From the sequence record MH383160: a DNA stretch of 64,000 nucleotides, one strand, 5' to 3'. This document shows, piece by piece, positions 1-14,849 of this stretch (position 1 is its first letter; each line of letters opens with the position of its first letter). The stretch comes from Escherichia phage UB. Both the position numbers and the translations under genes were made by a program. The notes under the pieces are model-generated. The model searched no databases, was not told the DNA's origin, and saw nothing but the letters and a program-made list of their open reading frames with translations.

Positions 1-179
1 ATATATTCTGTGCAAAACTTATCTTGATATTGAGTCCCCATAAAGTACAGCAACCATAGCTCATTAACTTTAGCTCGCATTTGGTTCCATGTAAGGCTGG
101 GGTCACCGTAGACTATCCTTGTGATGGGGGTTAGTTTACGAATTATAGTTTCAAATTCATCATCAGTTAAGTGTTTCAT
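1..179 (-). CDS. Family-B small protein paralog, 5' part only (gene runs past window start)
   Basis: ATG at 179 overlaps the stop of the upstream gene (ATGA); N-terminus MKHLTDDEFETII resembles MKHLSNSEKNKII of 176..394. Confidence 0.45.
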   Translation of the reverse strand, partial: MKHLTDDEFETIIRKLTPITRIVYGDPSLTWNQMRAKVNELWLLYFMGTQYQDKFCTEY

Positions 180-394
180 TTACATTTGTCCCTTATTAGA
201 TCAGTGAGGGCAACTATGTGTGCAACAACATACTCTTCCTGAAAGTTCGTCCCCAGTACAGCCATCATGCGTATATCGGTGGTGTTTATCCTGTGTTCCC
301 TTACACATAAACCTTCTGTGTGAGGAAGTGTAAAATATTTGTTTATTGCAGCAACGATAATTTTATTCTTCTCGGAGTTACTTAAATGTTTCAT
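176..394 (-). CDS. Family-B small protein (72 aa)
   Basis: ORF; C-terminal motif LGTNFQE..V...I..L...I shared with neighbours; overlapping stop/start. Confidence 0.55.
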   Translation of the reverse strand: MKHLSNSEKNKIIVAAINKYFTLPHTEGLCVREHRINTTDIRMMAVLGTNFQEEYVVAHIVALTDLIRDKCK

Positions 395-603
395 AGTTTA
401 CTCCTGATATAATTCTGAAGTGCAATTAAGTATTCCCCTACATAATACACCTGAAAGTCTGTATCAAGGAATGCACCCATAAGTAAATCTTTTTCTAATA
501 CCCTTGATAAGTTAAGGTCTGCATTTGAAAGGTATATAAGTAAGATTTCACCCTGTGCGGAATTGAAACGTTTCTTATATTCTTCTGATGTTAAAAAAAT
601 CAT
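391..603 (-). CDS. Family-B small protein (70 aa)
   Basis: ORF; C-terminal ..GAFLDTDFQVYY...L..YIRSKL; ATGA overlap with neighbours. Confidence 0.55.
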   Translation of the reverse strand: MIFLTSEEYKKRFNSAQGEILLIYLSNADLNLSRVLEKDLLMGAFLDTDFQVYYVGEYLIALQNYIRSKL

Positions 604-815
604 AATTTGCTCCTGATATATTTCTCAAGAGATGACAAATACTTTTCCTCATAATACTTCTGATAGTCTGTTCCTAAGAATGCACCCAATAGTATATCAT
701 TTTCCAATACCTCGGCTAAGTTTAAATCAGAAGTCTCTTCGTATATTATGAGGATTTCAAGTTGTCTGGCAGCGATGCGTTCAGTATATTGATATGAGTT
801 TTCTATAATAATCAT
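600..815 (-). CDS. Family-B small protein (71 aa)
   Basis: ORF; close paralog of 391..603 (LLGAFLGTDYQKYY...YIRSKL). Confidence 0.55.
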   Translation of the reverse strand: MIIIENSYQYTERIAARQLEILIIYEETSDLNLAEVLENDILLGAFLGTDYQKYYEEKYLSSLEKYIRSKL

Positions 816-1021
816 AGTTTACTCTTAATATCTTCTATTAAAAATCGAATCCATTCTTCAACATAATCTTCCTGATGGTTTGTGTTCAGTACAGCCAACA
901 TGCGGATCTCTGCTCTTGCAACTTCAATTTCAGTTTTAGGAAGGTCTTTGCTGATATCCACCATTAAGTCCATGTATTTCAAGATAAGACCGTATGATTG
1001 GGTTCGTGTTATAGTTTTCAT
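812..1021 (-). CDS. Family-B small protein (69 aa)
   Basis: ORF; C-terminal LAVLNTNHQEDYV..WIRFLIEDIKSKL. Confidence 0.55.
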   Translation of the reverse strand: MKTITRTQSYGLILKYMDLMVDISKDLPKTEIEVARAEIRMLAVLNTNHQEDYVEEWIRFLIEDIKSKL

Positions 1022-1218
1022 TGTTTCCTCGTGGACAATATTTTATTTTTCAATGTATCCATATATTGAATCACCCATCTTTCCTGATAGTTAGTTCCCA
1101 AAGTAATCAAAAGGTATAACTCCATTCGTTCTACGTGTGTGTCTGTATTATAAATCTTTGTGAAGTTTTTACGTAACAGTGATTGATATTCTTCTTTATT
1201 TAAAATACGCATTTTCAT
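1018..1218 (-). CDS. Family-B small protein (about 64-66 aa; start 1218 or 1212)
   Basis: ORF; LITLGTNYQERWV motif. Confidence 0.5.
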   Translation of the reverse strand: MKMRILNKEEYQSLLRKNFTKIYNTDTHVERMELYLLITLGTNYQERWVIQYMDTLKNKILSTRKQ

Positions 1219-1412
1219 AGTTTACTCGTTATATCTTCAATTAAATACCAAATCCAATCGTTGACATACCTTTCCTGAAAGTTAGTTCCAATGAATAGTG
1301 CCATAATTAATTCACGCTTATAGGCAATACCACGGTCATGGGACTTATACATTATCATAGCCATGTTATTGATAAGTCTTTCGTGGTGCTGTTCTTTAGT
1401 TAAAATACGCAT
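1215..1412 (-). CDS. Family-B small protein (65 aa)
   Basis: ORF; LFIGTNFQERYVNDWIWYLIEDITSKL, paralog of 812..1021. Confidence 0.55.
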   Translation of the reverse strand: MRILTKEQHHERLINNMAMIMYKSHDRGIAYKRELIMALFIGTNFQERYVNDWIWYLIEDITSKL

Positions 1413-1661
1413 AGGGACTCCATTAAAAATAATATCAATCCTATAATATACGATTCGTATAAAAAATCAATAACATTTTATTCGTAATACCCCTTTATCG
1501 AAGTCGCTAAGGTTACCCGCCCTTTAGCCCCCTACGCATTTTGCCATAGTCCAATCCCTTTTATTTCAAAAAAGTCAAGGGATTACCTATGCATTTTTTT
1601 AACGCATAATTTTAAAAACGCCTTGACTTTTTTCTGAATCAGTACTAGATCCCTTTACGCA

Positions 1662-1871
1662 TTAATCCTTCGTTACGCTAACGATTATCTGTGTATCCCC
1701 GTAGTCCTGCCATACTTCCACGCCATCGGTCGCCCTGGTTAGTCGTGCTGTCATCTGCTTAATGGTCTTAGGCTTTAGTGGAACCTGTTGCAGTACTGTA
1801 CGCATAGCATCATTGACGTTATCATGTACGCCTGCAATAGTACCTAGAACGCTGTATACTGTATAGAACAT
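1662..1871 (-). CDS. hypothetical protein (69 aa)
   Basis: ORF with AGGAG SD upstream; GGCCGCT..AGCGGCC hairpin between it and the upstream gene. Confidence 0.5.
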   Translation of the reverse strand: MFYTVYSVLGTIAGVHDNVNDAMRTVLQQVPLKPKTIKQMTARLTRATDGVEVWQDYGDTQIIVSVTKD

Positions 1872-1939
1872 ATGTATGTACTCCTGATATAGTTAAGGCC
1901 GCTAGAGAGCGGCCTATGATGTTTGGTGATGTGTATTGC

Positions 1940-2341
1940 TTACAGCCCTAAGATAGTACGTGCTTCGTTACGTTCCGTACACAGCTGCATGATGTGAGCA
2001 AGTAAGTCCTTGCTAATGTATCCGGTGTTCATAGCTTCACGAATAGATACATCATAAGCACCGAACCCCGTGCGAACGATACGCACATCATTCAGGTTAG
2101 TATTATAGATACCGCCGAGATCAACGGCTTCGAATACTACATCAACAGAATATTCATTGTTGCCATCGTGGAAGTTTTCCAGTGCAATAGTATTGGATAC
2201 CGCCCAACGTTTGCAGTTTCCAATGATGCGGCACTGTTCCGGTTGGATAGTGCCATTACTTACAGCGTACTCCAGTGCATCTTTACCAAAAGTCCGAGCC
2301 AGTACTAAAACGTCAGCGAAGGAAGTGATTGAGAAGGTCAT
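1940..2341 (-). CDS. hypothetical protein (133 aa)
   Basis: Start moved to the ATG at 2341, which has an AAGGAG SD; the track start at 2404 lies inside the promoter/5'-UTR hairpin. Confidence 0.55.
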   Translation of the reverse strand: MTFSITSFADVLVLARTFGKDALEYAVSNGTIQPEQCRIIGNCKRWAVSNTIALENFHDGNNEYSVDVVFEAVDLGGIYNTNLNDVRIVRTGFGAYDVSIREAMNTGYISKDLLAHIMQLCTERNEARTILGL

Positions 2342-2430
2342 GATAAAACTCCTTAATTTAGGAGGGAGAACCATTTCCCCCTCTCTATGTAAAACATTAT
2401 ACATGAATCTAAGTACTATGCAAGTACTTT

Positions 2431-2763
2431 TTACATTTTGATACCTGGATTCAGGTAGCGGTGAGATCCATATTCTGGATCGGTTTCGGTCCAGTACTGT
2501 AAATCAATAGTGCCTTTAGCGTTAATCTTGTCTACCAGCTTATTCATCTTAGCGTATACTACATCGGCATCGATGCGTTTAAAGCCAGTAGCTTTAGTGA
2601 AGTAGTAGTGATTTGCTTCACTATCATTGAGGATATACCGAGCACCGTTTGCAGTCTGTGCGATAATGATTGAGTATTCTACTTCACGATCCAGTCCGTC
2701 GATGAATACAGATGAAACATTGGTACGGATGAAAGCTTTAACGATAGCGATTGAAGTACTCAT
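2431..2763 (-). CDS. hypothetical protein (110 aa)
   Basis: ORF; TTGACA-N16-TATAAT promoter upstream when read on the minus strand. Confidence 0.55.
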   Translation of the reverse strand: MSTSIAIVKAFIRTNVSSVFIDGLDREVEYSIIIAQTANGARYILNDSEANHYYFTKATGFKRIDADVVYAKMNKLVDKINAKGTIDLQYWTETDPEYGSHRYLNPGIKM

Positions 2764-2914
2764 TTTGAATCTCCTAACTTTGTGGGCCGTCGCACCATTG
2801 CCGCCCTACGAGATACATTATCGCAGTACTGATATACTTTGTCAATACTTTTTTATTAATAGTTTTAGTTCCACCAGCAGATAGTTACTCACCGTTATTA
2901 ACTATATATTTTGG

Positions 2915-2997
2915 ATACACCTATGCACCCTGTGGGCTAGTTTTTGTCTATGCGTATATAATAGCAAAGGGACTGACCGGAGTCAATCCTTTTTTTA
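2915..2997 (-). repeat. About 85-bp intergenic repeat, copy 1
   Basis: ATACAC..GCACCCTGTGGGC..TATATAATAGCAAAGGGACTGACCGGAGTCAATCCC plus T run; near-identical copies at 5168..5255, 8439..8521, 12461..12546. Confidence 0.6.
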
Positions 2998-3007
2998 TTC
3001 TTTTTTG

Positions 3008-3208
3008 TTAGATGATTCTCCAATCATCAACGATCATGGTAAGATACCGAACCAGTGATTCGAGTGATTCGTGTTCTCGATAGTCTGCCGCTCCACCAGC
3101 GGTACAAGTACAGCCGATTACGCCGTTTTGTAGTTCCTGGATCTTTACGTCGATCTGGTTGGCTTTAGCTTCTTTCAGTACTTCAACCAGGGCGATAGCG
3201 ATAGACAT
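3008..3208 (-). CDS. hypothetical protein (66 aa)
   Basis: ORF with SD, promoter plus hairpin upstream, hairpin terminator downstream. Confidence 0.55.
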   Translation of the reverse strand: MSIAIALVEVLKEAKANQIDVKIQELQNGVIGCTCTAGGAADYREHESLESLVRYLTMIVDDWRII

Positions 3209-3229
3209 AATGTTTTACTCCAAACTATT

Positions 3230-3292
3230 GGCGGGAGAACTATTCCCCCGCTCTATGTAAAACATTATACATTACTGGTTAGTACTGTCAAA
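3230..3292 (-). promoter_or_regulatory. Early promoter plus 5'-UTR stem-loop cassette (PeSL-like)
   Basis: On the minus strand: -35 TTGACA, 16-17 nt spacer, -10 TATAAT, then hairpin GCGGGGGAAtagTTCTCCCGC and SD of 3008..3208. Confidence 0.6.
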
Positions 3293-3298
3293 TAGTTT

Positions 3299-3556
3299 TT
3301 ATGAAATATCTTCGATGTAGTCGGCCCATTTCATTTTTTCAGTACTGTCAATGGCTACCGGATTATTTGGATCAAACCATTCACCATCCCCGCAATACAT
3401 ACCCACGGCAACGGTTTTATAGCCATCCTGGGCAGTACTCCACGACATAGCACGATAGATATGGCCTTTAACTGGTTGCAGTACTGGTAACGTTTTATGG
3501 TCTTCTACGTAGGCCATAGCTTGAGGATTTACCCGATATTGTGTGAATTGTTCCAT
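3299..3556 (-). CDS. hypothetical protein (85 aa)
   Basis: ORF; TTGACA/TAATGT-like promoter and GGGGAAA SD upstream. Confidence 0.5.
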   Translation of the reverse strand: MEQFTQYRVNPQAMAYVEDHKTLPVLQPVKGHIYRAMSWSTAQDGYKTVAVGMYCGDGEWFDPNNPVAIDSTEKMKWADYIEDIS

Positions 3557-3632
3557 TATGTTTCCCCTTGTTGTTAGTAAAGTTATTACATCAGTACTAT
3601 CAAGCTATGTCAATAGTACTGAAATAAAACTT

Positions 3633-3857
3633 TTAGATTAGATTATTGATGCCGTTGATGGTAGACTCGCTTTCTTCTTTCTCCCATTGGCGGTAGTACT
3701 TCCATGCTTCATGATATGTGGCGATTAGTTCATCTTTTTGATCCTGAGTACATGCCAGTACTGAATCACTGTAAGCGGTGTTATAGATAGAATCAAATGA
3801 TTTCTTATCTGCCGCCAGGTTTACTACTGCCCGGATCAGGTCATCGTGATTAGCCAT
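3633..3857 (-). CDS. hypothetical protein (74 aa)
   Basis: Start moved to MANHDDL (AGGAG SD); the track start lies in the 5'-UTR hairpin. Confidence 0.5.
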   Translation of the reverse strand: MANHDDLIRAVVNLAADKKSFDSIYNTAYSDSVLACTQDQKDELIATYHEAWKYYRQWEKEESESTINGINNLI

Positions 3858-3925
3858 CGTATTACTCCTTATTAGTGGGGGAGGATATCTCCCCCTATGC
3901 AAAACATTATACTTTGTTTTAGTTA

Positions 3926-4189
3926 TTATGCAAGTACTTTTTTCATATAAACATTAAATTCTACACCGCCGTAACCTTCTACGATGATATGTTTTGCGTT
4001 ATCACGTTTGCACATAGTGAAACCGTTGTTGATATGTTCTGCATTTTCCAGGGATACATCACCGATTGCAGCACATACGGCACTAATAACAGTATTCCGC
4101 AAAGTACTGGTATCATTAGCGGTCATAGTAGTTTGCAGTACTACGTTGTCGTATACGTGTGCATTGATAGTGATTTCGATAGTGTTCAT
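3926..4189 (-). CDS. hypothetical protein (87 aa)
   Basis: ORF; promoter plus hairpin cassette and SD upstream. Confidence 0.55.
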   Translation of the reverse strand: MNTIEITINAHVYDNVVLQTTMTANDTSTLRNTVISAVCAAIGDVSLENAEHINNGFTMCKRDNAKHIIVEGYGGVEFNVYMKKVLA

Positions 4190-4275
4190 GGTGTATCTCC
4201 TGGACTAGCGGGAGAACTATTCCCCCGCTCTATGTAAAACATTATACGTTAATCTAACTACAATGCAAGTACTTT

Positions 4276-4467
4276 TTAAATTTTATTTCCGATATAGTCC
4301 GGCCTGTTCTTTTCGGTCATACGCTTAAGCATTTTTTGCATATGGCTTATTGCTTGTAGTGTATCCTCTTCCAGGGATGAATCGAGATAATCAGGATCAT
4401 TCTTTACCTTGCAATGATTATGATAGCGTAGTACTGCCAGTACTTTTTTAACTTCTTCAACTGTCAT
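4276..4467 (-). CDS. hypothetical protein (63 aa)
   Basis: ORF; start overlaps the stop of 4464..4736, so translationally coupled. Confidence 0.5.
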   Translation of the reverse strand: MTVEEVKKVLAVLRYHNHCKVKNDPDYLDSSLEEDTLQAISHMQKMLKRMTEKNRPDYIGNKI

Positions 4468-4736
4468 AATAAGTACTCCACTTCGTTAGCTTTCAGGTTA
4501 GTATCAATCATCAGTGGTTTTTTGTAGTCCACAAAACGATTAGTTTTCTCGATGGCGAATCCCATATAATCCAGCTTACTTACCGTGCATTCATTCTTAA
4601 AAACTTCTTTCGCTGCATTGATGGCTGATTCAATTGATAACCGACCATCTAAGTTAATGTTTCCAAATGATCCACCAGCAGAAGTAGGATTACCGTTCAT
4701 ATCTTTAATGATCATAGTAGCGGAGTAGCTAGACAT
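4464..4736 (-). CDS. hypothetical protein (90 aa)
   Basis: ORF; promoter plus hairpin cassette upstream. Confidence 0.55.
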   Translation of the reverse strand: MSSYSATMIIKDMNGNPTSAGGSFGNINLDGRLSIESAINAAKEVFKNECTVSKLDYMGFAIEKTNRFVDYKKPLMIDTNLKANEVEYLL

Positions 4737-4758
4737 AATTTTGTTTCCTTTTATTGGT

Positions 4759-4817
4759 GGGGAGAACTATTCTCCCCTTGATGTAAACTATTATACAGTA
4801 CTGATATACTTTGTCAA
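4759..4817 (-). promoter_or_regulatory. Early promoter plus 5'-UTR stem-loop cassette (PeSL-like)
   Basis: Minus strand: GTATTGACAAAG, spacer, TATAAT, AGTTTACATCAA, hairpin GGGGAGAAtagTTCTCCCC; same architecture repeats upstream of about 30 genes between 2.3 and 19.6 kb. Confidence 0.6.
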
Positions 4818-4820
4818 TAC

Positions 4821-5042
4821 TTAATTACGTTTAAAATGATATGTGCCTTTATCATCCTGTACGCCCCATACTGATTTACCATCAACACCAGTGAAACCGG
4901 ATTGTAATTCAATATGGAAACCATTATTATCAACTACAAAAACTTTTTTATTTTCATCCCGATAACATTGATATTCTGAATCAACATTAAAGGCCGCATC
5001 ATTCAGAAGATTGGAAGCGTAAATGCAAGTCATTGTAGTCAT
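4821..5042 (-). CDS. hypothetical protein (about 73 aa)
   Basis: Start moved downstream of the 5'-UTR hairpin (MTTMTCIY). Confidence 0.45.
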   Translation of the reverse strand: MTTMTCIYASNLLNDAAFNVDSEYQCYRDENKKVFVVDNNGFHIELQSGFTGVDGKSVWGVQDDKGTYHFKRN

Positions 5043-5167
5043 GATTTTATTCCTTATTGCCAGGGAGAACCATTTCCCCCTCTCGATATAAAACATTATA
5101 CTTGATTCTAAGTACAATGCAAGTACTTTTTAAAAATAGTTTTCAGTACTGAATACTTATATAATAG

Positions 5168-5255
5168 ATACACTTATGCACCCTATGGGTCAGTGAGTTA
5201 TCTCTCAATGGATATATAATATCAAAGGGACTGACCGGAGTCAATCCCTTTTTTA
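5168..5255 (-). repeat. About 85-bp intergenic repeat, copy 2
   Basis: Direct comparison with 2915..2997. Confidence 0.6.
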
Positions 5256-5262
5256 ATCTTTT

Positions 5263-5847
5263 TTATCGTGTTATAGTTACGGCTTTTACATCACGCTTTT
5301 TATAGTACTGATTCCAGATATTGCGGGTTAAACCGTAATCAAGTACTTTAATAAGTCCATTACGATCCTGGCCGATATTCTGTTTTCTGATATCTCTTAT
5401 CGTTAGTGTTGATAATGTATCATCAACGTGTTGTAGTGCATCAGCAAAGCGGTGCTGGCGTTCGATTGCATTACGTTTAATATTGTACTTTAATTCATTG
5501 CACGCGTTTACGTGCTTCACACTGCCTTTGCTTGCAGTACTCAACCGATCCATAACGATAAACATATTATCAGGATCGCATAAATGCATATGCACTTTAG
5601 CAAAATACTGTTTCAACTGAGGGCGGTCATAGTCTAAAAAATTCCATACCTTACATTCAGTTTCATTTTGTTCTACACCCGCATCACAATTAGCGACCTT
5701 AATCACTAACCGATCATTTAAAGCGAATACAATACGGGAAGAACCCGCACCGATGATCTCCAGACCAGCTAACCGACAAGCTGAAAGGATCTCTTTGTTG
5801 GTTTCCATTTCTGACAGGGTACGGATGAATTTAGTATAATTACGCAT
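5263..5847 (-). CDS. putative protein-kinase-like protein (194 aa)
   Basis: IGAGSSRIVF...VIKV resembles a glycine-rich loop plus catalytic Lys; DIRKQNIGQDRNG and VLDYG resemble catalytic and DFG-like motifs; AGGAGAA SD at corrected start. Confidence 0.5.
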   Translation of the reverse strand: MRNYTKFIRTLSEMETNKEILSACRLAGLEIIGAGSSRIVFALNDRLVIKVANCDAGVEQNETECKVWNFLDYDRPQLKQYFAKVHMHLCDPDNMFIVMDRLSTASKGSVKHVNACNELKYNIKRNAIERQHRFADALQHVDDTLSTLTIRDIRKQNIGQDRNGLIKVLDYGLTRNIWNQYYKKRDVKAVTITR

Positions 5848-5878
5848 TGCATGTTCTCCTTGAGTTAATGAAACTATC

Positions 5879-6121
5879 TTACAGTACTTTACTATCAATG
5901 GCAACTACTTTTTTCACACTAACCGCGTGAATCACTTCCTTAGTGTTTTTAGTACTGAATACTTTCGCCGTGCCTTGTTCTACTGCAATACGATAACGAC
6001 CGTTAACATCAACCATATTAATAAAGTCCGGTGTACTAAACCGAGTAGTTTTACATTTCAGTACTGTTAACAGTTCCACCAGTGATGTAGTTTCTTTGAT
6101 ACGTTTTTCTAAAGTAATCAT
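5879..6121 (-). CDS. hypothetical protein (80 aa), paralog of 6179..6397 at DNA level upstream
   Basis: Start moved to MITLEKRIKE; 5' region nearly identical to that of the next gene. Confidence 0.5.
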   Translation of the reverse strand: MITLEKRIKETTSLVELLTVLKCKTTRFSTPDFINMVDVNGRYRIAVEQGTAKVFSTKNTKEVIHAVSVKKVVAIDSKVL

Positions 6122-6178
6122 TTTGTTTTCCCCGTGTTGGTATGTACATATAGTACTAAAACATTTGAGTACTGTCAA

Positions 6179-6397
6179 TTAGATAATATTATATTTCTTA
6201 AAATAAAATGCGTCCTGTGTTGGTTGATACTCAATGCCATTGCCGTTATTGACTTCAACTAATAAACCTTTGTCAATAAGTTTTTTAATAGTACGATACC
6301 CTTGTTGAAAATTGGTAAAATGTGAATCATTACGAAAGGTATAACCGTGCTTAACTGCTTCATCAATAGTTTTCTTTTCGATTTTAGATAATTTCAT
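6179..6397 (-). CDS. hypothetical protein (72 aa)
   Basis: Start moved to MKLSKIEKK; TTGACA promoter and GGGAGAAAC SD upstream. Confidence 0.5.
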   Translation of the reverse strand: MKLSKIEKKTIDEAVKHGYTFRNDSHFTNFQQGYRTIKKLIDKGLLVEVNNGNGIEYQPTQDAFYFKKYNII

Positions 6398-6450
6398 TTT
6401 GTTTCTCCCGTGTTGGTATAGATATATAATACTAAAACATTTGAGTACTG

Positions 6451-6705
6451 TCAACGTGATATTAGTTTTATTTTCTTATTATACTGTTGATGCTCATAAA
6501 GGTTTATCTTTCCAGTATTCTCAATTACTATTCTGTTGTTGGTGTCCACGTCGATTACACGTAGTTTCCCGTTGCTTAACTTCCTAGGCAATAGGTTACC
6601 ATTAATAAACTCATTAGCAAGCTGTACGGCCTTTGTGATGATTCTCTGAGGTGCTTTATAGTGTACCCGTAAGATGTTATCTTTATATAGTTGAACCTTA
6701 ATCAT
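6451..6705 (-). CDS. hypothetical protein (84 aa)
   Basis: ORF; SD-like AGGACAAAC upstream. Confidence 0.5.
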   Translation of the reverse strand: MIKVQLYKDNILRVHYKAPQRIITKAVQLANEFINGNLLPRKLSNGKLRVIDVDTNNRIVIENTGKINLYEHQQYNKKIKLISR

Positions 6706-6716
6706 TTTGTTTGTCC

Positions 6717-6744
6717 TATAAAAAAGGCGGGAACTGATCCCGCC
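6717..6744 (-). terminator. Rho-independent terminator
   Basis: Minus strand GGCGGGAtcagTTCCCGCC followed by a T run, just 3' of gene 6767..7171. Confidence 0.6.
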
Positions 6745-6766
6745 GTGTTGTTAGTACTGCAAGTTA

Positions 6767-7171
6767 TTAGATAACCTGGCGGCGTTTACTGTATACTGTT
6801 ACACGATTACCCTTACGATCATGTCGGATCTCTTTCTGGTTGCGAATCAGTTCACTTGGACGCTTAAGGTTTGCCAGGTGATCCGCGTGAGTCCATGCGG
6901 TGTGGTTTACCTGTACTTTGATATCAGAATCAGCGATAAACTCATCTTGTGCATCAAGTATTGACGCCAGTAAATCCGCTCGTTTTAGTTCTGCTGCTGT
7001 TAGTACTGGCTCCGGTGAATTCACAATATCAGAGATCTCTTTGAACTGTACGGCCCAGCGTTGACCTTTCGGTGCATCTTTGCCCATGTCTTTAAATGTT
7101 TCGCCTTCCTCGCGTGCAACAATACGGGCAGCTTCACGGGTAGCGTAAAATTTAGTAATCATGGTATACAT
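6767..7171 (-). CDS. hypothetical protein, paralog of 18477..18743
   Basis: Shares YFATRE.AR..AR..G.TFKDMG..RWAV and C-terminal HDRKGNRVTVYS with 18477..18743. Confidence 0.55.
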   Translation of the reverse strand: MYTMITKFYATREAARIVAREEGETFKDMGKDAPKGQRWAVQFKEISDIVNSPEPVLTAAELKRADLLASILDAQDEFIADSDIKVQVNHTAWTHADHLANLKRPSELIRNQKEIRHDRKGNRVTVYSKRRQVI

Positions 7172-7257
7172 CCTATTAGTTAAGTTAGTACTACAAGTTA
7201 GAGTCTATTATAAAGTACTATCTGGGCAATGTCAAATAGTACTTTAAATGGATTCTA

Positions 7258-7581
7258 TTACATGTCTTTCTTACGTTTTACATCGTGGTAGCGAACTGTT
7301 ATTTCTTTGTTGATCTCTTCCTCGATGCGGTGAATAACTTTTTCTTTCGGGTTGAAACCTATAACGGTTTCTTTAATGATCTCCAAGCCCGTGTATTCGC
7401 CTTGTGTACCGTAACCGTATGTAAAGGTTTCGTGTCCCAGGTCTTCCCAGCGGTCGCCAATTAACGCAGACACGTAGCAAGAGTGGTAAGTATTGCCGTG
7501 TGAATCAGTCCACCGATTAACATTAATGTCAAAGGAGGTTACAATTTTCAGTTCCACTTTCTGGGCAAGGATCATAGCCAT
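7258..7581 (-). CDS. hypothetical protein (107 aa)
   Basis: Start moved to MAMILAQ; the track start lies in the 5'-UTR hairpin. Confidence 0.5.
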   Translation of the reverse strand: MAMILAQKVELKIVTSFDINVNRWTDSHGNTYHSCYVSALIGDRWEDLGHETFTYGYGTQGEYTGLEIIKETVIGFNPKEKVIHRIEEEINKEITVRYHDVKRKKDM

Positions 7582-7669
7582 TTTTATTTCTCTCTCTTTG
7601 TTAGGAGGGGAACCGTTTCCCCTCACTTGATGTAAACTATTATACAGTACTAAGATACTTTGTCAATAC

Positions 7670-7852
7670 TTATTTTTTGGAAAGTTTACGCATTAATTCT
7701 ACGCTTTCTTGTGAACGTTTTGCTACCTGGCAAGCTGTATGGGTAGTAAACATTTTTGTATAGTCTGACGCTTTGCCACCGAACCGAGCGGCACGTTCAC
7801 GGGCACTTGGAACTAATACTATTTCTTTCTTGCAGATAGTGCACTTAGCCAT
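7670..7852 (-). CDS. hypothetical small basic protein (60 aa)
   Basis: ORF; promoter plus hairpin cassette upstream, near-identical to that of the neighbouring gene. Confidence 0.5.
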   Translation of the reverse strand: MAKCTICKKEIVLVPSARERAARFGGKASDYTKMFTTHTACQVAKRSQESVELMRKLSKK

Positions 7853-7939
7853 TTTTATTTCTCTCTTTTAGTTAGGAGGGGAACCATTCCCCTCGCTTGA
7901 TGTAAACTATTATACAGTACTAAGATACTTTGTCAATAC

Positions 7940-8215
7940 TTAATTATTGTAAATGTCGTGAATAGTGATAAAGTTTTTACGACCGTAAACCTGCAAATCA
8001 GTATCAATAAAGTGCTTATCTAGTACATCCTCGACGCTTAACGCGGTGTCGTGGATATCTTCGTAGAATTGAGGATCTACAATCTTGCTTAAGTCATCCG
8101 GCGTTAACTTATCATTTAACCATTGAACCGCCTGGATATCTGCTTCACGTTTCCAGTCTTCCAGGTTAGTAGTCAGTACTTGCTCGATTTCGTTAGCTGT
8201 CAGTAGAATCCGCAT
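7940..8215 (-). CDS. hypothetical acidic protein (91 aa)
   Basis: ORF; promoter cassette upstream. Confidence 0.5.
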   Translation of the reverse strand: MRILLTANEIEQVLTTNLEDWKREADIQAVQWLNDKLTPDDLSKIVDPQFYEDIHDTALSVEDVLDKHFIDTDLQVYGRKNFITIHDIYNN

Positions 8216-8438
8216 TTTTATGTTTCCTTATCAGTGGTTGATGTAAGTATTATACTCTTTTACTTTCTATTGTCAAACTATTTTATCAGGGGAGGTTTTC
8301 TTATGTCTTACTCCTGGACTACTTAACGGGGTTACTTGTTTCGTTCCCCGTCCTGATGTAAAACATTATACTTGATTCTAAGTACAATGCAAGTACTTTT
8401 TAAAAATAGTTTTCAGTACTAGCCACCAGCATATAATA

Positions 8439-8521
8439 GATACATTTATGCACCCGGTGGGCTGAATTGTTTCTATGCGTATATAATAGCAAAGGGACTG
8501 ACCGGAGTCAATCCCTTTTTC
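8439..8521 (-). repeat. About 85-bp intergenic repeat, copy 3
   Basis: Direct comparison with 2915..2997. Confidence 0.6.
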
Positions 8522-8955
8522 AAATATTTTTAAACTTCTTTCGGGTTGCGATATGTGATAGCGTTCGGGTACATTTGTTTAATGTTATTCCATGCCTGGT
8601 TAACATTGTAACCACTTGAGCGAATCAGTTGGTTACTACCGACACCTTGAAACACTACTTCGAATAAGAATTCTTTCATGCTTTCACCTCGCGATCTGCT
8701 TTACCTTTACGCCAGGACATTACTAATTGTTCGCGTTGCCATAAGTCGAGTGATACAAAAAGTTTTGCGGTATCACTTTTAGGATACTCTCCAGTAGTAC
8801 CTAACCGATAAAACAGATCTTTCAGTACTGATAATTCTACTTGAATCATTTTATTACTCCTGATTGCGTTAATACTTCTACAATTGCATGAATGATCATA
8901 AGTACAGCTAAAACAATAATCATCGGATTCATTTGCATAAGCTGTACTCCTTCTA

Positions 8956-9168
8956 TTAATCTTTCAGCCAATGATCTTGAATGAATTTTTCACAGAATCC
9001 CTGTTTCATGGATTCTAACAGGCGTTCGCGGTGAGCGGCGGCATATTGCTCAGTACTATGCGTTACGCCAGGCTGATAACGTGATACCCCATCCGGTCCG
9101 ATGTATTGTACATCCCACGGTTTTTCGTTAGTATCAGACCATTTACGAACGATTAGTTGACCTTGCAT
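8956..9168 (-). CDS. hypothetical protein (70 aa)
   Basis: ORF; promoter plus hairpin cassette and AGAGGAAAG SD upstream. Confidence 0.55.
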   Translation of the reverse strand: MQGQLIVRKWSDTNEKPWDVQYIGPDGVSRYQPGVTHSTEQYAAAHRERLLESMKQGFCEKFIQDHWLKD

Positions 9169-9251
9169 TTTTCTTTCCTCTCAGTGGGGAGAATCATTTC
9201 TCCCCTTCATGTAAACTATTATACAGTACTGGGTTGCATTGTCAATAGTTT

Positions 9252-9575
9252 TTATTCACCTTGTTTGAATTTAGTTTTCTGCATTGATTCCATGATTGCA
9301 ACCAATACGCCGTGGATCTCGCTTAACGCGGAATCACTAAAAGCATTAATGAATAGTCGATCATTCTCGCGAATATTTTTAATGTACTTTTCAGCAGTAG
9401 TTGCGAATTCATTCAACGGTAGATCAAATGCTTTATCCCATGATGGATGGCGTAATTGTAACAGTACTGGATTATCACGATCACCAGGGGAAAACGTACC
9501 AGTGATGAAACATACGCCCGGAATACTTTCGAACTGGCAACGGACTTCCTTTGTGATAGTAGTATGAATGTACAT
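9252..9575 (-). CDS. hypothetical protein (107 aa)
   Basis: ORF; GAGGATAA SD upstream; co-transcribed with 9603..9791. Confidence 0.5.
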   Translation of the reverse strand: MYIHTTITKEVRCQFESIPGVCFITGTFSPGDRDNPVLLQLRHPSWDKAFDLPLNEFATTAEKYIKNIRENDRLFINAFSDSALSEIHGVLVAIMESMQKTKFKQGE

Positions 9576-9602
9576 TTATTGTTATCCTCTATTAAATTAA
9601 TA

Positions 9603-9791
9603 TTACAGTTTATGAATCAATTCTTTATCTAAGCGATAGCGTACATTATTAATAGTAACGGCATTGTTTTTAATGCTACGCTGTACAGGTCCACCAGCAA
9701 TAACAAATGTTGCTTTATTGCCCCGAACAATGATAGCACTTCCAGGATTACCGAAATCATCTTGTACTAAAATACTTGATAAGTTTTCCAT
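9603..9791 (-). CDS. hypothetical protein (62 aa)
   Basis: ORF; promoter plus hairpin cassette upstream. Confidence 0.5.
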   Translation of the reverse strand: MENLSSILVQDDFGNPGSAIIVRGNKATFVIAGGPVQRSIKNNAVTINNVRYRLDKELIHKL

Positions 9792-9870
9792 TTTTTATTT
9801 CCTCTTAGTAGGGGAAGATGTTTCCCCTTGATGCAAGTACTATAACAGTACTGAAAACTAAATGCAAGTA

Positions 9871-10227
9871 CTATGATAAAATCATGATAGGATATTCACT
9901 ATCGATCAGTACCTCGAATCCGAAACCTTCGTACCATTCTTTAAGATTAAAGGCGTTATCTTCTCCCGTATCGCATTCTAAAATGATACAATCTGAATCA
10001 TCGGCGGCATCAATAAAGGCATTCATTAATTCGTTACCTTCACCATTGCCCCGACTATCAGGATCAACATAAAGAGAATCAATAAACGCTACACGGTCAT
10101 AATCAAGATCCGGTGCAATGATTCCACGTTTAACAAACCAGTACTGCAATTGTGCTACTTTGCCCTGTACTTGATAGCCAGTGATCTCGCCATTGTCAGT
10201 AGTACGCGTGATATGTTGTATTCCCAT
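9871..10227 (-). CDS. putative GNAT-family N-acetyltransferase (118 aa)
   Basis: VDPDSRGNGEGNELMNA resembles the acetyl-CoA-binding motif A (Q/R-x-x-G-x-G/A) of GNAT enzymes; size fits a minimal GNAT fold. Confidence 0.45.
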   Translation of the reverse strand: MGIQHITRTTDNGEITGYQVQGKVAQLQYWFVKRGIIAPDLDYDRVAFIDSLYVDPDSRGNGEGNELMNAFIDAADDSDCIILECDTGEDNAFNLKEWYEGFGFEVLIDSEYPIMILS

Positions 10228-10290
10228 GATTTCAATCCTCAGTTAAGATATAAAATATTATAAACTATCTTTCAGTACTGTCAATACTTT

Positions 10291-10548
10291 TTATCTCATA
10301 GATCTATGCCAACAATTACGCGGATCTCTTTTAAAAGTACTATCATGATCCTCCTGGCAAGTAATACAATACATGCACCCTATAACGGCCTGGCGTCGAT
10401 TCTCAGGAATTTTATCGCCGCAGTCGAGGCAATGTACCAGTGATTCTCTTTGTGCGTTAATTTGCTTTCTAGCGTGGTTAACGGCGGCCTGAATCACTGC
10501 GTTAATCTCGTCTTGTTCGGCCCCATCTTTCGCGAATCCTACAGCCAT
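10291..10548 (-). CDS. DksA/TraR-family C4 zinc-finger protein (85 aa)
   Basis: C-x2-C-x17-C-x2-C (CLDCGDKIPENRRQAVIGCMYCITC) with RRQA, typical of TraR/DksA C4-type fingers. Confidence 0.6.
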   Translation of the reverse strand: MAVGFAKDGAEQDEINAVIQAAVNHARKQINAQRESLVHCLDCGDKIPENRRQAVIGCMYCITCQEDHDSTFKRDPRNCWHRSMR

Positions 10549-10879
10549 TATTTTAACCTCATTATAAAAATACTATAGTACTGTAATGCGACAATAATAT
10601 TACTTGTTCTTACTTTTTCCAATCCACATGATACCACATATTCATCCCCATATGTGCGGAACGATACACCATGAAAATTTTTATACACTTGCACTACTAA
10701 TCATAACCTTTCGTCTAACCAACTGCATAGAATTATACTACTTTACGCAAATTGATCAAGTATTGATCAGATCATTTTTTGATCAATATTATACAGTTAC
10801 ATTTGTGCACCCTATGGGTTAGTGACGTTCTCGTCTTGATGTAAGTATTATGCCAGTACTGGATGATATTGTCAATAGT

Positions 10880-11077
10880 TTATTTTAATTTTTTTCTGTC
10901 ATTGATTAATGCTTTCAGTACTATACTAATGATTTGCAATGATTCATCAATGACTATAAAATTATTTTCTTTCATTAGATGATAGTTACCATTGATTGTA
11001 TATTCTAAGGAGTACTGTTTACGTTTAATTTTTGATAATGTTTCTATTTGTTTTTGTACTGATTTCATGCTAATCAT
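10880..11077 (-). CDS. hypothetical protein (65 aa)
   Basis: ORF; very AT-rich; start context weak. Confidence 0.4.
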   Translation of the reverse strand: MISMKSVQKQIETLSKIKRKQYSLEYTINGNYHLMKENNFIVIDESLQIISIVLKALINDRKKLK

Positions 11078-11688
11078 TGTTAAACGTCCTGTAACGCATT
11101 CTAACGAGATAAACGGTTGAGTACTGGCATTGTATAGGGTAATGAATTAAAGCCCACCAGCGTTAACCAGTGGGCTATAATCTTACATCTTGCGGATAAT
11201 CTTAACAGTATCTTTCACCGATTTACCGTCTTGCTGACATTGCTCGATCATTGCGTATTGTTCTGCGGTCAGATCCTCGCCAGTTTTTGCCAGTACTGCG
11301 TCGATGAATGAATCCAGTGCGATCATTTTGTTTCTCTCTTAGGTTAAGTTAACTACTGTTGATAAAACTTATTATACAGTACTATCAAACTATGTCAATA
11401 ACTTTAATAGTACTGGTAATATATTTTAGCGGTAGTCGTCGTATGCTTTATTCACCTGGCGAATGTAACTTTCAAAGGCTTCGTCTACCGTTTCATACTC
11501 CCGAACATAATCACCATAGGAAACTACATACATACCTTTTTGATCTTCAAACGTCATGATGATAGAATCCAGACCAACGATTTCAGTTTTTGCGATGATA
11601 GCCATTTTTTAATTCCTTAGTAGTGTAGTTGATAAAACTTATTATGCCAGTACTATCAAACTATGTCAATAGCACTGTGATAATATTT

Positions 11689-11901
11689 TTAGTTAATAAT
11701 AGTCAGTGTAAAATTGTAATCCCCTGCCTGGTATAGTACTTTATCGCCGAACGTGCCGACACGTTTCATATTGCAATAGATACCCATAACACTTTTTACA
11801 TCTTTGATATTCCGAACGCCTGTAATATCTTTATTAAAATAATCGTGGTCAGAAAATAAAACTTGTTTTGCATTTTTCAGTACAGTGCGGATATTAGCCA
11901 T
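11689..11901 (-). CDS. hypothetical protein (70 aa)
   Basis: ORF; promoter plus hairpin cassette upstream. Confidence 0.5.
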   Translation of the reverse strand: MANIRTVLKNAKQVLFSDHDYFNKDITGVRNIKDVKSVMGIYCNMKRVGTFGDKVLYQAGDYNFTLTIIN

Positions 11902-11994
11902 TTTGTTTTCTCTCTGTTAGTGGGGAGAACTATTCTCCCCTTGATGTAAACTATTATACAGTACTATAATCTATTGTCAAACTATTTTTTTATA

Positions 11995-12336
11995 TTATTC
12001 GAAATCTTCTGGACCGGACTGATAATCATCTTCACCGTATGCACTTTCTAACCGCTCACCAGTGTAATCATCAGTTAAGCTATCATCCTCATAGTTCACG
12101 TCTACGCCTGTGATGTAAAACTGGCTATCGTCTGGATCATTGAAATTAATTTTTTGGATGTTTACAATAACTGTATTGATGCCCAGGACACCGCCATCAG
12201 CCGTTACAAAGTACTGATAGTTTTCACAACCGCCTGAATTGAAACCGTAATTAATTTCGGCCCGACCATCATTTAAACGCAGTGCCTGGGCAATGATTTC
12301 ATTTTCAAAGTTAGATTGAGCAATTGAGATAGTCAT
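11995..12336 (-). CDS. hypothetical acidic protein (113 aa)
   Basis: ORF; promoter plus hairpin cassette and AAGGAAAC SD upstream. Confidence 0.55.
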   Translation of the reverse strand: MTISIAQSNFENEIIAQALRLNDGRAEINYGFNSGGCENYQYFVTADGGVLGINTVIVNIQKINFNDPDDSQFYITGVDVNYEDDSLTDDYTGERLESAYGEDDYQSGPEDFE

Positions 12337-12460
12337 GATTCGTTTCCTTATTACCAGGGGAAACCGTTTCCCCTTGCGATGTAAAACATTATACGCTTAT
12401 TGAGATAGTTTGCAAGTACTTTTTAAAAATAGTTTTCAGTACTCAAACATTATACAATAG

Positions 12461-12546
12461 ATACACTCCTGCACCCTGTGGGCTAGTGAGCTATCTCTCA
12501 ATGAATATATAATAGCAAACTGGCTGACCGAAGTCAACCACTTTTT
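12461..12546 (-). repeat. About 85-bp intergenic repeat, copy 4 (hairpin variant GGCTGACCGAAGTCAACC)
   Basis: Direct comparison; the hairpin resembles the type found in the 44-59 kb region. Confidence 0.55.
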
Positions 12547-12769
12547 CATTTATTTTTAGCTTTTAGAATCGCCGCCTTTCGCGTCATGCCTTGCTTGATG
12601 TACTCATTTACTTTCGCTTTTTTAGCGTTTACCTTGTCTGCTTTCGTTTTAGGAGTACTGTAAATTATACCGTTAGGATTCATTTAAATCACCATAAAGA
12701 ATAGATAGGTTACTAACAATGCCGCGATCATTGCACCGACCAGGGCCGAACTGTAATAAGCTAATGATT

Positions 12770-12922
12770 TCATTTTTTAGCCTGAAAATAATGTTTAATT
12801 TGAGCGGCGGTCAGTGCACAATTACGCAGGAAGTTTTCTGTATAACTGCGTCGAGTACTGAAAGAAAATTGACCTTTACCGTTCCCGATAGTAACATCAA
12901 ACCGAGCATTATATTGTTTCAT
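12770..12922 (-). CDS. hypothetical small protein (50 aa)
   Basis: Start moved to MKQYNARF (GGAGA SD); the track's first Met is encoded by the hairpin loop. Confidence 0.45.
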   Translation of the reverse strand: MKQYNARFDVTIGNGKGQFSFSTRRSYTENFLRNCALTAAQIKHYFQAKK

Positions 12923-13219
12923 TTTGTTTCTCCTGTTCTTGGGGAGAATCATTTCTCCCCTTCATGTAAACTATTATACAGTACTAAAAACTAATTGCAA
13001 GTATTATTTTTTAGATTTACGTAAACTTTCTACCATCTCAGGAGTAAGCCCCAGCGGGTAGGAAACCACTTCATCCACAAAACGCAAAGGGAATACCCCA
13101 TCTAAAGTTGAACGTGCTTTCTTATTAGTACTCTTTTTTGATGCTTTCATTTCATATTCCTTAATTAGTGGGGAGAACTATTTCTCCACTTCATGTAAAC
13201 TATTATACAGTACTAAAAA

Positions 13220-13429
13220 CTAATTGCAAGTATTATTTTCTAAAAAATGTTTGTATGCTGAATCAACCACTCTTTCGATAACATACGCTAACGGCACGTA
13301 TCCAACTACATGACTACAATAAAAAGGACTACGATTAGAATCATCGTATGCAAATACTTTTTCAGGATCTGCATCAATCACATACATATTAACCTTTAAG
13401 ATGTCGATCTTATCCTGTACAGTAAGCAT
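13220..13429 (-). CDS. hypothetical protein (69 aa)
   Basis: ORF; co-transcribed with 13435..13707. Confidence 0.5.
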   Translation of the reverse strand: MLTVQDKIDILKVNMYVIDADPEKVFAYDDSNRSPFYCSHVVGYVPLAYVIERVVDSAYKHFLENNTCN

Positions 13430-13434
13430 ATTAA

Positions 13435-13707: not shown

Positions 13708-13758
13708 GGTATAATCCCCAATATAAGCGGCCTAAAACGACCGCTAACGATGTTTTGA

Positions 13759-14828: not shown

Positions 14829-14849
14829 ATTGATTCAGTACTTTAATTG

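What the first reader, a model, noticed from the sequence alone, without database searches (positions are those of the whole stretch)
1415..1660. Structured ORF-free spacer with 13-bp inverted repeats
AAAAAAGTCAAGG at about 1567 and its complement CCTTGACTTTTTT at about 1621 bracket ATGCATTTTTTTAACGCAT; three TACGCATT-containing repeats lie nearby. The spacer sits between the Family-B operon and the upstream gene and could be a bidirectional terminator or regulator site.
Basis: seen in the sequence. Interest (0 to 1): 0.35.

Follow-up and report, generated by a model that had tools for sequence, protein, structure and literature searches.

The report
Jumbo-phage terminal-repeat boundary with hairpin
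This gene-free stretch is where the roughly 20-kb repeat carried at both ends of a giant E. coli virus's DNA stops. The physical end of the packaged chromosome falls at base 1509/1510. The inverted repeat is a real hairpin 58 bases inside that end, found only in some lineages and probably a transcription stop. It is a known kind of landmark and only modestly surprising.

Summary
The window comes from an Asteriusvirus (PBECO4/121Q/G17-like) jumbo coliphage, with all local genes on the minus strand. The 13-bp perfect inverted repeat (1568-1580 / 1621-1633) is real and unlikely by chance (P about 5e-4).

The spacer is the junction between the long direct terminal repeat (DTR, window 1510..21219, 19.7 kb) and unique DNA. 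Seven independent GenBank records end exactly at window 1510. One of them (fEgEco12) was mapped by PhageTerm plus restriction digests.

In another genus, Klebsiella phage fENko-Kae01, the PhageTerm-mapped DTR ends after a homologue of the same 69-aa gene. It shares an invariant module with the window: TGGACTATG, 35 nt, then CCT|TAGC.

Just outside the DTR, every lineage with an intact leader has a sigma-70-like promoter.

The repeat lies in the 152-nt non-coding DTR tail. As RNA its core hairpin (-15.9 kcal/mol) runs straight into U6, so it looks like a terminator. It has a 40-nt branched loop, no predictor calls it, and it is missing in several relatives. Its function is therefore unsettled: terminator about 0.4, packaging accessory about 0.25, relic about 0.25.

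The parts
1510..21219 (-). Long direct terminal repeat (DTR), 19,710 bp, present once in this collapsed assembly. Position 21219 is the genome's left end and 1510 is the right boundary of the repeat.
   Evidence: The ends of records G17, E9.1, fEgEco12, BF17, WPEC3 and CRJP21, and the annotated DTR feature of vB_Ec-M-J, all map to window 1510. The opposite ends of G17, vB_Ec-M-J, E9.1 and fEgEco12 all map to 21219. fEgEco12 was mapped by PhageTerm plus restriction digests and G17 by read coverage.
1506..1512 (-). Terminus motif CCT|TAGC. The virion DNA end falls between 1510 and 1509.
   Evidence: It is 6-7/7 identical in Asteriusvirus (two alleles), fENko-Kae01, L147 and L148, against a 28-58% background. 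About 12 nt on the unique side (TAGCGACTTCGA) stay conserved even where the flanks beyond are unrelated, as in PBECO4, SD-2_S15 and Turkey5.
1545..1556 (-). Conserved block GATTGGACTATG. Its core TGGACTATG sits at -44..-36 from the cut.
   Evidence: The core is 9/9 identical at the same distance (35 nt between block and cut) in five lineages spanning at least two genera. It is the only exact copy in the 64-kb window.
1568..1580 (.). Inverted-repeat arm 1 (plus strand AAAAAAGTCAAGG). On the sense strand it reads CCTTGACTTTTTT and is the 3' arm, containing a -35-like TTGACT followed by the U/T run.
1621..1633 (.). Inverted-repeat arm 2 (plus strand CCTTGACTTTTTT). On the sense strand it is the 5' arm, AAAAAAGTCAAGG.
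1589..1607 (.). Inner imperfect hairpin (ATGCAT..ACGCAT) at the apex of the long hairpin.
   Evidence: A 9-bp apical stem appears in the minimum-free-energy fold of the sense RNA.
1533..1540 (+). TACGCATT repeat (sense strand AATGCGTA), 23 nt inside the terminus.
   Evidence: ATGCGT(A/G)GGGGG is kept in the divergent JNE01/Turkey5 allele.
1656..1663 (+). TACGCATT repeat overlapping the stop codon of the last DTR gene (sense strand TAATGCGTA).
1639..1646 (+). One copy of the genome-wide TCAGTACT box.
   Evidence: 92 copies in the window against 2.3 expected. It is kept in all Asteriusvirus alleles.
1443..1470 (-). Sigma-70-like promoter for the paralog operon, just outside the DTR. It reads TTGATT-16-TATTAT here; most relatives have TTGACT.
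   Evidence: Equivalent promoters sit 30-60 nt outside the DTR in JNE01 (10/12), fENko (11/12) and L148 (11/12).
1418..1421 (-). Shine-Dalgarno GGAG for the first paralog gene (ATG at 1412-1410).
   Evidence: Read directly from the sequence.
1662..1871 (-). Last gene of the DTR (69 aa, phrog_17833, function unknown).
   Evidence: The 37.5%-identical homologue ENKO_050 is also the last gene of the fENko-Kae01 DTR.
1215..1412 (-). First gene of the unique region, the first of six tandem paralogs (phrog_4148).

Best explanation
The spacer is the junction between the phage's roughly 19.7-kb direct terminal repeat and unique DNA. Shown: the packaged chromosome ends between window 1510 and 1509 (sense strand ...GGGTAACCT|TAGCGAC...). 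The 152 nt between the last DTR gene and that end form a non-coding 'end module'. The only parts of it invariant across genera are TGGACTATG at -44..-36 and CCT|TAGC at the cut. The 97 nt beyond the cut carry the sigma-70-like promoter and ribosome-binding site of the first unique-region operon. Inferred: the TGGACTATG-N35-CCT|TAGC module is the sequence read by the end-forming (terminase) machinery. Inferred, about 0.4: the 13-bp inverted repeat, 58-123 nt inside the end, acts on the sense transcript as a long three-tier hairpin (GUCAAGG...CCUUGAC, -15.9 kcal/mol) followed directly by U6. In this reading it is a non-canonical intrinsic terminator or attenuator. It would close the last early operon of the repeat before the terminus and before the next promoter. 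Its flanking A6 and U6 tracts give it a bidirectional look that nothing here requires.
For: Identity of the window: 41 Asteriusvirus records match at 91-98%. Boundary: seven records end at exactly window 1510, and four of them have their other end at 21219. PhageTerm plus restriction digests support the fEgEco12 termini, coverage supports G17, and PhageTerm supports fENko-Kae01. Cross-genus support: a homologue of the 69-aa gene is the last DTR gene in fENko-Kae01, and its DTR ends 145 nt after the stop codon. TGGACTATG and CCT|TAGC are 9/9 and 6-7/7 identical at fixed spacing in five lineages, against a 28-58% background. Homology to phages with different unique-side flanks breaks 12-20 nt outside the cut. 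Terminator reading: the sense RNA folds to -29.4 kcal/mol with z = -4.0. The core hairpin is -15.9 kcal/mol followed by U6, compared with -12 to -16 for canonical terminators in the same DTR. A promoter follows in every lineage with an intact leader. fENko has a hairpin plus T-run in the same gene-to-promoter interval, though just outside the DTR.
Against: No reads or RNA data exist for this phage. The boundary is transferred from relatives that are 93-100% identical in the spacer, and some of those records may have been oriented by homology rather than mapped independently. ELP-22 ends at window 1638 instead. For the terminator reading: the loop is 40 nt and branched. Neither the scan nor ARNOLD in the G17 record calls it. 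A one-sided A-to-T change shortens the repeat to 11 bp in five phages with no compensating change. The repeat is absent in Turkey5/JNE01, L147 and L148, and the JNE01 allele has no sense-strand hairpin followed by a U-run. SD-2_S15 lacks the downstream promoter, so its paralog genes would depend on read-through across the hairpin.
Confidence: 0.75

Rival explanations
1. The inverted repeat works at the DNA level as part of the packaging site, like cosB next to cosN. Its two arms sit 53 bp apart centre to centre, about five helical turns. Together with the ATGCGTA repeats, they would bind the small terminase subunit or an accessory protein. That protein would position the nuclease at CCT|TAGC, 58 nt away.
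For: The repeat lies 58-123 nt inside a mapped physical end. The non-coding tail keeps a length of 137-152 nt across genera, far more than the 45 nt that the invariant module occupies. An inverted AGTCAA...TTGACT pair recurs in fENko (L142 428-444/468-484) and A4 (L143 381-392/400-411). Short repeats cluster in the tail.
Against: Arm spacing differs between lineages (40, 23 and 7 nt between the arms), which fits a hairpin better than a fixed protein footprint. The pair is lost in Turkey5/JNE01, L147 and L148 although the terminus module is intact there. No binding data exist.
Confidence: 0.25
2. The inverted repeat has no function of its own. It is a relic of duplicated or inverted promoter -35 cassettes (TTGACTTTTT) that litter this early region, tolerated in a non-coding tail.
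For: The sense-strand arm CCTTGACTTTTTT shares the 10-mer TTGACTTTTT with the real promoter 100 nt downstream in relatives. Hairpins carrying a -35 (AAGGGATTGAC...GTCAGTCCCTT) recur at 2967-2992, 5225-5250 and 8492-8517. Neither arm has a usable -10. The repeat is not conserved in several lineages and shows no compensatory change.
Against: A perfect 13-bp repeat is improbable by chance (P about 5e-4). It is kept intact in most of the phages inspected, and the AAGTCAAG/TTGACTT core is shared with a different genus.
Confidence: 0.25
3. The structured tail is an injection-stop or transfer-pause signal like the T5 first-step-transfer stop. It would hold DNA entry at the end of the early-gene repeat until early proteins are made.
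For: By analogy only. As in T5 (from my own knowledge of T5; not tested here), the repeat is packed with small early genes behind sigma-70 promoters, and a repeat-rich, palindrome-rich non-coding stretch sits at its inner end.
Against: There is no evidence of two-step injection in these phages. The tail is 152 nt against more than 1 kb in T5. The structures are not conserved between lineages.
Confidence: 0.04
4. The two arms are back-to-back -35 boxes of divergent promoters. One would drive an antisense RNA into the repeat.
For: TTGACT is present on both strands. The plus-strand copy is followed by TCAGTACT, as in early-promoter spacers.
Against: Neither has an acceptable -10 at 16-18 nt (ATTGGA on the sense strand, TAGATC on the plus strand). 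The scan reports no such promoter.
Confidence: 0.04

Closest known systems
Long direct terminal repeats of Rak2-like jumbo phages (fEgEco12, vB_Ec-M-J, G17, fENko-Kae01, CBB)
   Same: Same element. The annotated or published DTR ends of these genomes map to window 1510 and 21219. The repeat holds about 50 small early genes behind RpoD-type promoters.
   Different: The papers I could read report only the length of the repeat. None describes the boundary sequence, the TGGACTATG-N35-CCT|TAGC module or the inverted repeat.
Lambda cos (cosN cut site plus adjacent cosB binding region) and T3/T7 concatemer-junction pac sites
   Same: A defined cut, with a conserved recognition block and short repeats within about 150 bp on the packaged side.
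   Different: Here the ends carry a 20-kb repeat, not 12-nt cohesive ends or a 160-bp repeat. No terminase binding has been shown. There is no sequence similarity. This comparison rests on my own knowledge of lambda and T7.
Bidirectional Rho-independent terminators
   Same: A-tract, then stem, then U-tract. The hairpin energy is comparable to canonical terminators in the same genome.
   Different: A 54-nt three-tier hairpin with a 40-nt branched 'loop' instead of a 3-10-nt loop. The stem next to the U-run is only 7 bp with 4 G-C pairs. Predictors do not call it.
T5 terminal repeat with its injection-stop region
   Same: A pre-early or early gene block inside a long DTR, with a structured non-coding stretch at its inner end.
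   Different: Much shorter here, and no evidence of two-step DNA transfer. The resemblance comes from memory only.
PeSL (promoter-early stem-loops) of T4-type phages
   Same: Stem-loops that carry a TTGAC -35 box occur in this early region (2967-2992, 5225-5250, 8492-8517). The unique-side promoter in fENko is overlapped by such a hairpin.
   Different: The arm of the inverted repeat in this finding has a -35-like box but no -10, so it is not a promoter stem-loop.

Membership tests
DTR boundary (physical genome end) of Asteriusvirus / Rak2-like jumbo phages | The site coincides with the end of linear virion-form genome records of close relatives | tested here: met
   Seven records end at window 1510, and four of them have their other end at 21219.
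DTR boundary (physical genome end) of Asteriusvirus / Rak2-like jumbo phages | Read-start pile-up, doubled coverage or end restriction fragments in the phage itself | not testable with these tools
   No reads are available for the window's phage. This was done for relatives: fEgEco12 by PhageTerm plus digests, G17 by coverage, fENko-Kae01 by PhageTerm.
DTR boundary (physical genome end) of Asteriusvirus / Rak2-like jumbo phages | Same architecture at an independently mapped end in another genus | tested here: met
   In fENko-Kae01 a homologous last gene is followed by a 145-nt tail, with TGGACTATG-N35-CCT|TAGC at the mapped end.
Rho-independent terminator | Stable stem immediately followed by a U-run of at least 5 | tested here: met
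   The core hairpin is -15.9 kcal/mol, followed by UUUUUU.
Rho-independent terminator | Compact hairpin with a short loop (3-10 nt), recognised by standard predictors | tested here: not met
   The loop is 40 nt and branched. It is absent from the scan output, and the ARNOLD-annotated G17 record has no terminator there.
Rho-independent terminator | Structure kept in relatives, ideally with compensatory changes | tested here: not met
   A one-sided change shortens the repeat to 11 bp in five phages. It is absent in Turkey5/JNE01, L147 and L148.
Rho-independent terminator | Transcript 3' ends at the U-run | not testable with these tools
   I found no transcriptome study of Asteriusvirus.
Terminase recognition site (cos/pac type) | Sequence-specific cut at a fixed position with a conserved flanking recognition sequence | tested here: met
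   The end position is identical in seven records. The invariant blocks lie at -44..-36 and -3..+4 across genera.
Terminase recognition site (cos/pac type) | Binding of the small terminase subunit to the adjacent repeats or inverted repeat | not testable with these tools
   No biochemical data. The variable arm spacing in relatives argues weakly against it.
PeSL promoter stem-loop | Stem-loop containing a complete early promoter (-35 and -10) | tested here: not met
   TTGACT is present in the arm, but no -10 lies at 16-18 nt on either strand.
Any Rfam RNA family | Covariance-model score at or above the gathering threshold | tested here: not met
   The only hit was bglG-cis-reg at 28 bits against a gathering score of 80.

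The most novel reading that the evidence does not exclude
TGGACTATG-N35-CCT|TAGC, with the repeat-rich tail around it, would be the sequence-specific end-forming site of the Rak2-like jumbo phages, the first defined for any long-DTR jumbo phage. Both DTR boundaries carry the same short motif in inverted orientation just outside the repeat: C-R-CTA^AG in Asteriusvirus and GCTA^ in fENko. This arrangement is what a single strand-specific nickase would need. It could make staggered nicks 20 kb apart, followed by strand-displacement synthesis that duplicates the whole repeat, which is the T7 model at about 100 times the scale. The inverted-repeat arms would then be accessory binding sites.
Probability: 0.2. 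Interest if true: 0.6.

Novelty: new member of a known kind. Interest (0 to 1): 0.35.

Why it matters
How phages with 10-60-kb terminal repeats cut and duplicate their ends is poorly understood. For the Rak2-like jumbo phages, only repeat lengths have been published. Placing the end at nucleotide resolution on a conserved bipartite motif gives three things. It gives a concrete target for terminase or nickase biochemistry. It gives a rule for orienting the many circularly permuted or collapsed Asteriusvirus assemblies in GenBank. It also gives a candidate cis-element for engineering these phages. The inverted repeat alone is a small matter: a probable terminator, or a relic, in one sub-lineage.

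Tried and rejected
(1) Rfam on 1200-2000 at a permissive threshold gave one sub-threshold chance hit.

(2) IMG/VR scans for the 14-mers AGCTAAGGTTACCC and CGCTAAGGTTACCC returned 114 loci. Only the 121Q contig was homologous and the rest were chance matches.

(3) An IMG/VR scan for GATTGGACTATG-N33-37-CCTTAG gave one hit, inside what looks like an adenovirus fibre gene, so it is chance. The scan also failed to return the 121Q contig, so this negative result is weak.

(4) I considered a covariation test of the inverted repeat and dropped it. The 34 records are 93-100% identical, and the only arm variant is one-sided.

(5) JNE01 and Turkey5 have their own 12-nt inverted repeat with one mismatch, at the same 53-bp arm spacing. 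It reaches only P = 0.05 in shuffles, so I do not count it as conserved structure.

(6) vB_Ec-M-J has one extra A at both DTR junctions. This looked like covariation of the cut motif. An off-by-one duplication of the terminal base when the linear record was built explains it equally well, so I did not use it.

(7) I looked for the TGGACTATG block, or its complement, at the matching distance inside the left end. Only a loose TAGTTTCCAA is there, at a different offset, and fENko has nothing.

(8) C-R-CTAAG-K alone does not define the ends. It occurs four times in the window, with 5.8 expected.

(9) One literature search was mis-specified and returned nothing useful.

Full report
WHAT THE WINDOW IS. 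The first 4 kb match 41 phage records at 91-98% identity. All are Asteriusvirus jumbo coliphages or Salmonella phages of 310-386 kb, such as PBECO4, 121Q, phAPEC6 and G17. Around the finding every plausible gene is on the minus strand, so the minus strand is the sense strand here. The spacer 1413-1661 lies after the stop codon of a 69-aa gene (1662..1871; phrog_17833, function unknown). It lies before the first of six tandem paralogs (1215..1412 onward; phrog_4148).

THE OBSERVATION.
- The 13-bp inverted repeat is exact: 1568-1580 AAAAAAGTCAAGG and 1621-1633 CCTTGACTTTTTT, with 40 nt between the arms.
- It brackets ATGCATTTTTTTAACGCAT at 1589-1607.
- One of 2000 dinucleotide-preserving shuffles of the spacer gave a perfect inverted repeat this long. 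Only three loci in the 64-kb window have one.
- There are two exact TACGCATT copies in the spacer, not three (1533, 1656). A TACGCATA sits at the start codon of the first paralog, and there are two one-mismatch variants.
- Only a 27-aa ORF clips the edge of the spacer.
- No Rfam family matches.

WHAT THE SPACER REALLY IS. In vB_Ec-M-J the annotated feature 'Direct Terminal Repeats 1..21525' ends inside this spacer. I fetched the ends of linear records that contain the region twice. G17 (start), E9.1, fEgEco12, BF17 and CRJP21 (ends) and WPEC3 (start) all begin or end with AGGTTACCCGCCC..., which is window 1510. The opposite ends of G17, vB_Ec-M-J, E9.1 and fEgEco12 all map to window 21219.

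The repeat is therefore window 1510..21219 (19,710 bp), present once in this collapsed assembly. Because its genes read on the minus strand, 21219 is the genome's left end and 1510 is the inner, right boundary.

The fEgEco12 termini came from PhageTerm and were checked with restriction digests (PMC13070987). G17's came from read coverage (PMC6563267). ELP-22 ends at window 1638 instead. I cannot say whether that is a different mapping or an assembly choice.

CROSS-GENUS CONFIRMATION. A tblastn search with the 69-aa protein finds a 37.5%-identical homologue (ENKO_050) in Klebsiella phage fENko-Kae01. That phage is classified outside Asteriusvirus, and PhageTerm gave it a 19,736-bp DTR (PMC11218385). 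The homologue is again the last gene of the repeat, and the repeat ends 145 nt after its stop codon. Two IMG/VR jumbo-phage contigs (L147, L148; 31-36% protein identity) have the same layout.

I anchored all lineages at the cut on the sense strand and compared them without gaps.
- TGGACTATG at -44..-36 is 9/9 identical in every comparison.
- CCT|TAGC at -3..+4 is 6-7/7 identical.
- Neighbouring segments are 28-58% identical, close to background for AT-rich DNA.
- The distance from the start of GGACTATG to the start of CTTAGC is 41 nt in all seven sequences examined.
- TGGACTATG occurs exactly once in the window. CCTTAGC occurs four times, at chance level.
- The tail from stop codon to cut is 137-152 nt in all lineages.

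Phages whose unique-side flank is unrelated (PBECO4, BF17, the SD Salmonella phages, Turkey5) keep about 12 nt beyond the cut (TAGCGACTTCGA) before diverging.

I infer that this bipartite module is what the end-forming machinery reads. Phage A4 has a further allele that lacks TGGACTATG. Its end is unmapped.

OUTSIDE THE REPEAT. Every lineage with an intact leader has a sigma-70-like promoter 30-60 nt beyond the cut:
- TTGACT-16-TAAAAT in G17, JNE01 and Turkey5;
- TTGACA-17-TATACT (11/12) in fENko and L148;
- a weaker TTGATT-16-TATTAT in the window itself.

SD-2_S15 has this leader deleted, so its paralog gene begins 16 nt after the cut.

THE INVERTED REPEAT ITSELF. It lies 58-123 nt inside the end. 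The sense RNA of 1545-1665 folds to -29.4 kcal/mol (z = -4.0). The antisense RNA folds to -17.6 (z = -2.05). The core hairpin GUCAAGG...CCUUGAC is 54 nt, in three tiers with a 5-nt apical loop, at -15.9 kcal/mol. It runs directly into U6. Three canonical GC-rich terminators in the same repeat score -12.4 to -16.1. That favours a terminator or attenuator closing the last DTR operon ahead of the next promoter.

Several points count against this.
- The geometry is atypical.
- The scan does not call it.
- The ARNOLD annotation of G17, where the spacer is near-identical, does not call it either.
- Five phages (vB_Ec-M-J, Turkey3, EC.P1, CMSTMSU, fEgEco12) carry a one-sided A-to-T change that shortens the repeat to 11 bp without compensation.
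- Turkey5/JNE01, L147 and L148 lack it altogether.
- JNE01 has no sense-strand hairpin followed by a U-run.

On the other side, fENko shares the core AAGTCAAG...TTGACTT, and A4 has a perfect 12-bp TAATTGAGTCAA/TTGACTCAATTA. The spacing between arms is 23 nt in fENko and 7 nt in A4. fENko also has a separate hairpin plus T-run just outside the repeat.

So some hairpin recurs between the last DTR gene and the next promoter, but it is not the same one each time. My weights are: terminator or attenuator about 0.4, packaging accessory site about 0.25, relic of -35 cassettes about 0.25, and other readings about 0.1.

THE TWO ENDS COMPARED. Reading from outside into the repeat, the left junction is GCCACTA|AGTAGG and the right junction is GTCGCTA|AGGTTA. 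The shared motif is C-R-CTA|AG in inverted orientation. In fENko the junctions are CCGCTA|TATC and TGGCTA|AGGC. This fits a strand-specific nick on opposite strands at the two boundaries, as in the T7 model of repeat duplication. But the motif is short, and on its own it occurs at chance frequency in the window. I treat this as a lead only.

COMPARISON WITH WHAT IS KNOWN. The existence and length of the DTR in this group are published. The CBB paper states that the physical nature of its genome ends remains unknown. I found no description of the boundary sequence, and no transcriptome study for the genus.

The element works like a cos/pac-type end site next to a terminator-like hairpin. Membership as a DTR boundary is met on the tests I could run. 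Membership as a canonical intrinsic terminator fails on loop size, predictor recognition and conservation.

VERDICT. The spacer's identity as the DTR boundary is well supported and is of a known kind. The conserved terminus module is a useful new detail. The function of the inverted repeat remains unsettled. Interest is modest.

Noticed in passing
whole window, e.g. 1639-1646, 2825-2832, 4797-4804, and a dense cluster at 20148-21532: The palindromic hexamer AGTACT occurs 275 times in 64 kb against about 22 expected (12.6-fold). Every one of the 25 commonest 8-mers contains it. CAGTACTG has 51 sites, and TCAGTACT has 92 hits against 2.3 expected. It is found in coding and non-coding DNA on both strands. 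It forms the spacer of early promoters (TTGACA-N7-TCAGTACTG-TATAAT) and is densest in the DTR. It also abounds near the fENko left end. I found no paper pairing 'AGTACT' with 'jumbo phage'. This may be more interesting than the finding itself.
   Followed up: partly
window 21194-21219 (minus strand); L144 301-323: The genome's left end starts with a hairpin-capable inverted repeat from nucleotide 1 in both genera, with unrelated sequences: AGTAGGCAGAggaagTCTGCCgTACT in Asteriusvirus and TATCTTCTctgtataAGAAGATA in fENko-Kae01.
   Followed up: partly
window 21132-21165 and 21342-21375: Two clusters of TGATTAC-type repeats (sense strand GTAATCA) with 10-bp periodicity flank the left terminus, one inside and one outside the repeat. 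vB_Ec-M-J has one extra unit. About 1.3 kb around the left end (roughly 20150-21490) has no minus-strand ORF of 40 aa or more.
   Followed up: no
window 2967-2992, 5225-5250, 8492-8517: A recurring hairpin AAGGGATTGACTCCGGTCAGTCCCTT has a 5' arm that carries the -35 (TTGACT) of a downstream promoter. This arrangement resembles the promoter stem-loops (PeSL) of T4-type phages.
   Followed up: partly
window about 5113-5180, 8383-8450, 12406-12470: A repeated intergenic cassette of about 60 nt: GCAAGTACTTTTTAAAAATAGTTTTCAGTACT...TATAATAGATACA (plus-strand text).
   Followed up: no
L002 (Turkey5), about 1667-1826: An 80-nt tandem duplication of the proximal part of the DTR tail (TTTTTTGCGTAG...CAGTACTAAATCCTTTTACGCATTAATCCTTCGTTA), absent from its close relative JNE01.
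   Followed up: no
L006 pos 711-712 and L027 (vB_Ec-M-J): This record has one extra A at both DTR junctions (CTAA|AG instead of CTA|AG). Most likely this is an off-by-one duplication of the terminal base made when the linear record was assembled.
   Followed up: partly
L014 (ELP-22 record end), equal to window 1638: ELP-22 ends 128 nt further inside the repeat than the seven other records, exactly at the start of ATCAGTACT.
   Followed up: no
L011 (SD-2_S15) 541-620; L004 (PBECO4) 1023-1500: The unique side of the boundary is a hot spot for rearrangement. The SD Salmonella phages have the promoter leader deleted. PBECO4 and BF17 have a different 366-nt gene inserted. Turkey5 and JNE01 have a different first gene. 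In every case homology resumes within 12-20 nt of the cut.
   Followed up: partly
window 1465-1470 (minus strand): The window's own promoter -35 is TTGATT, where nearly all relatives have TTGACT. This single C-to-T change weakens the match to 9/12.
   Followed up: no
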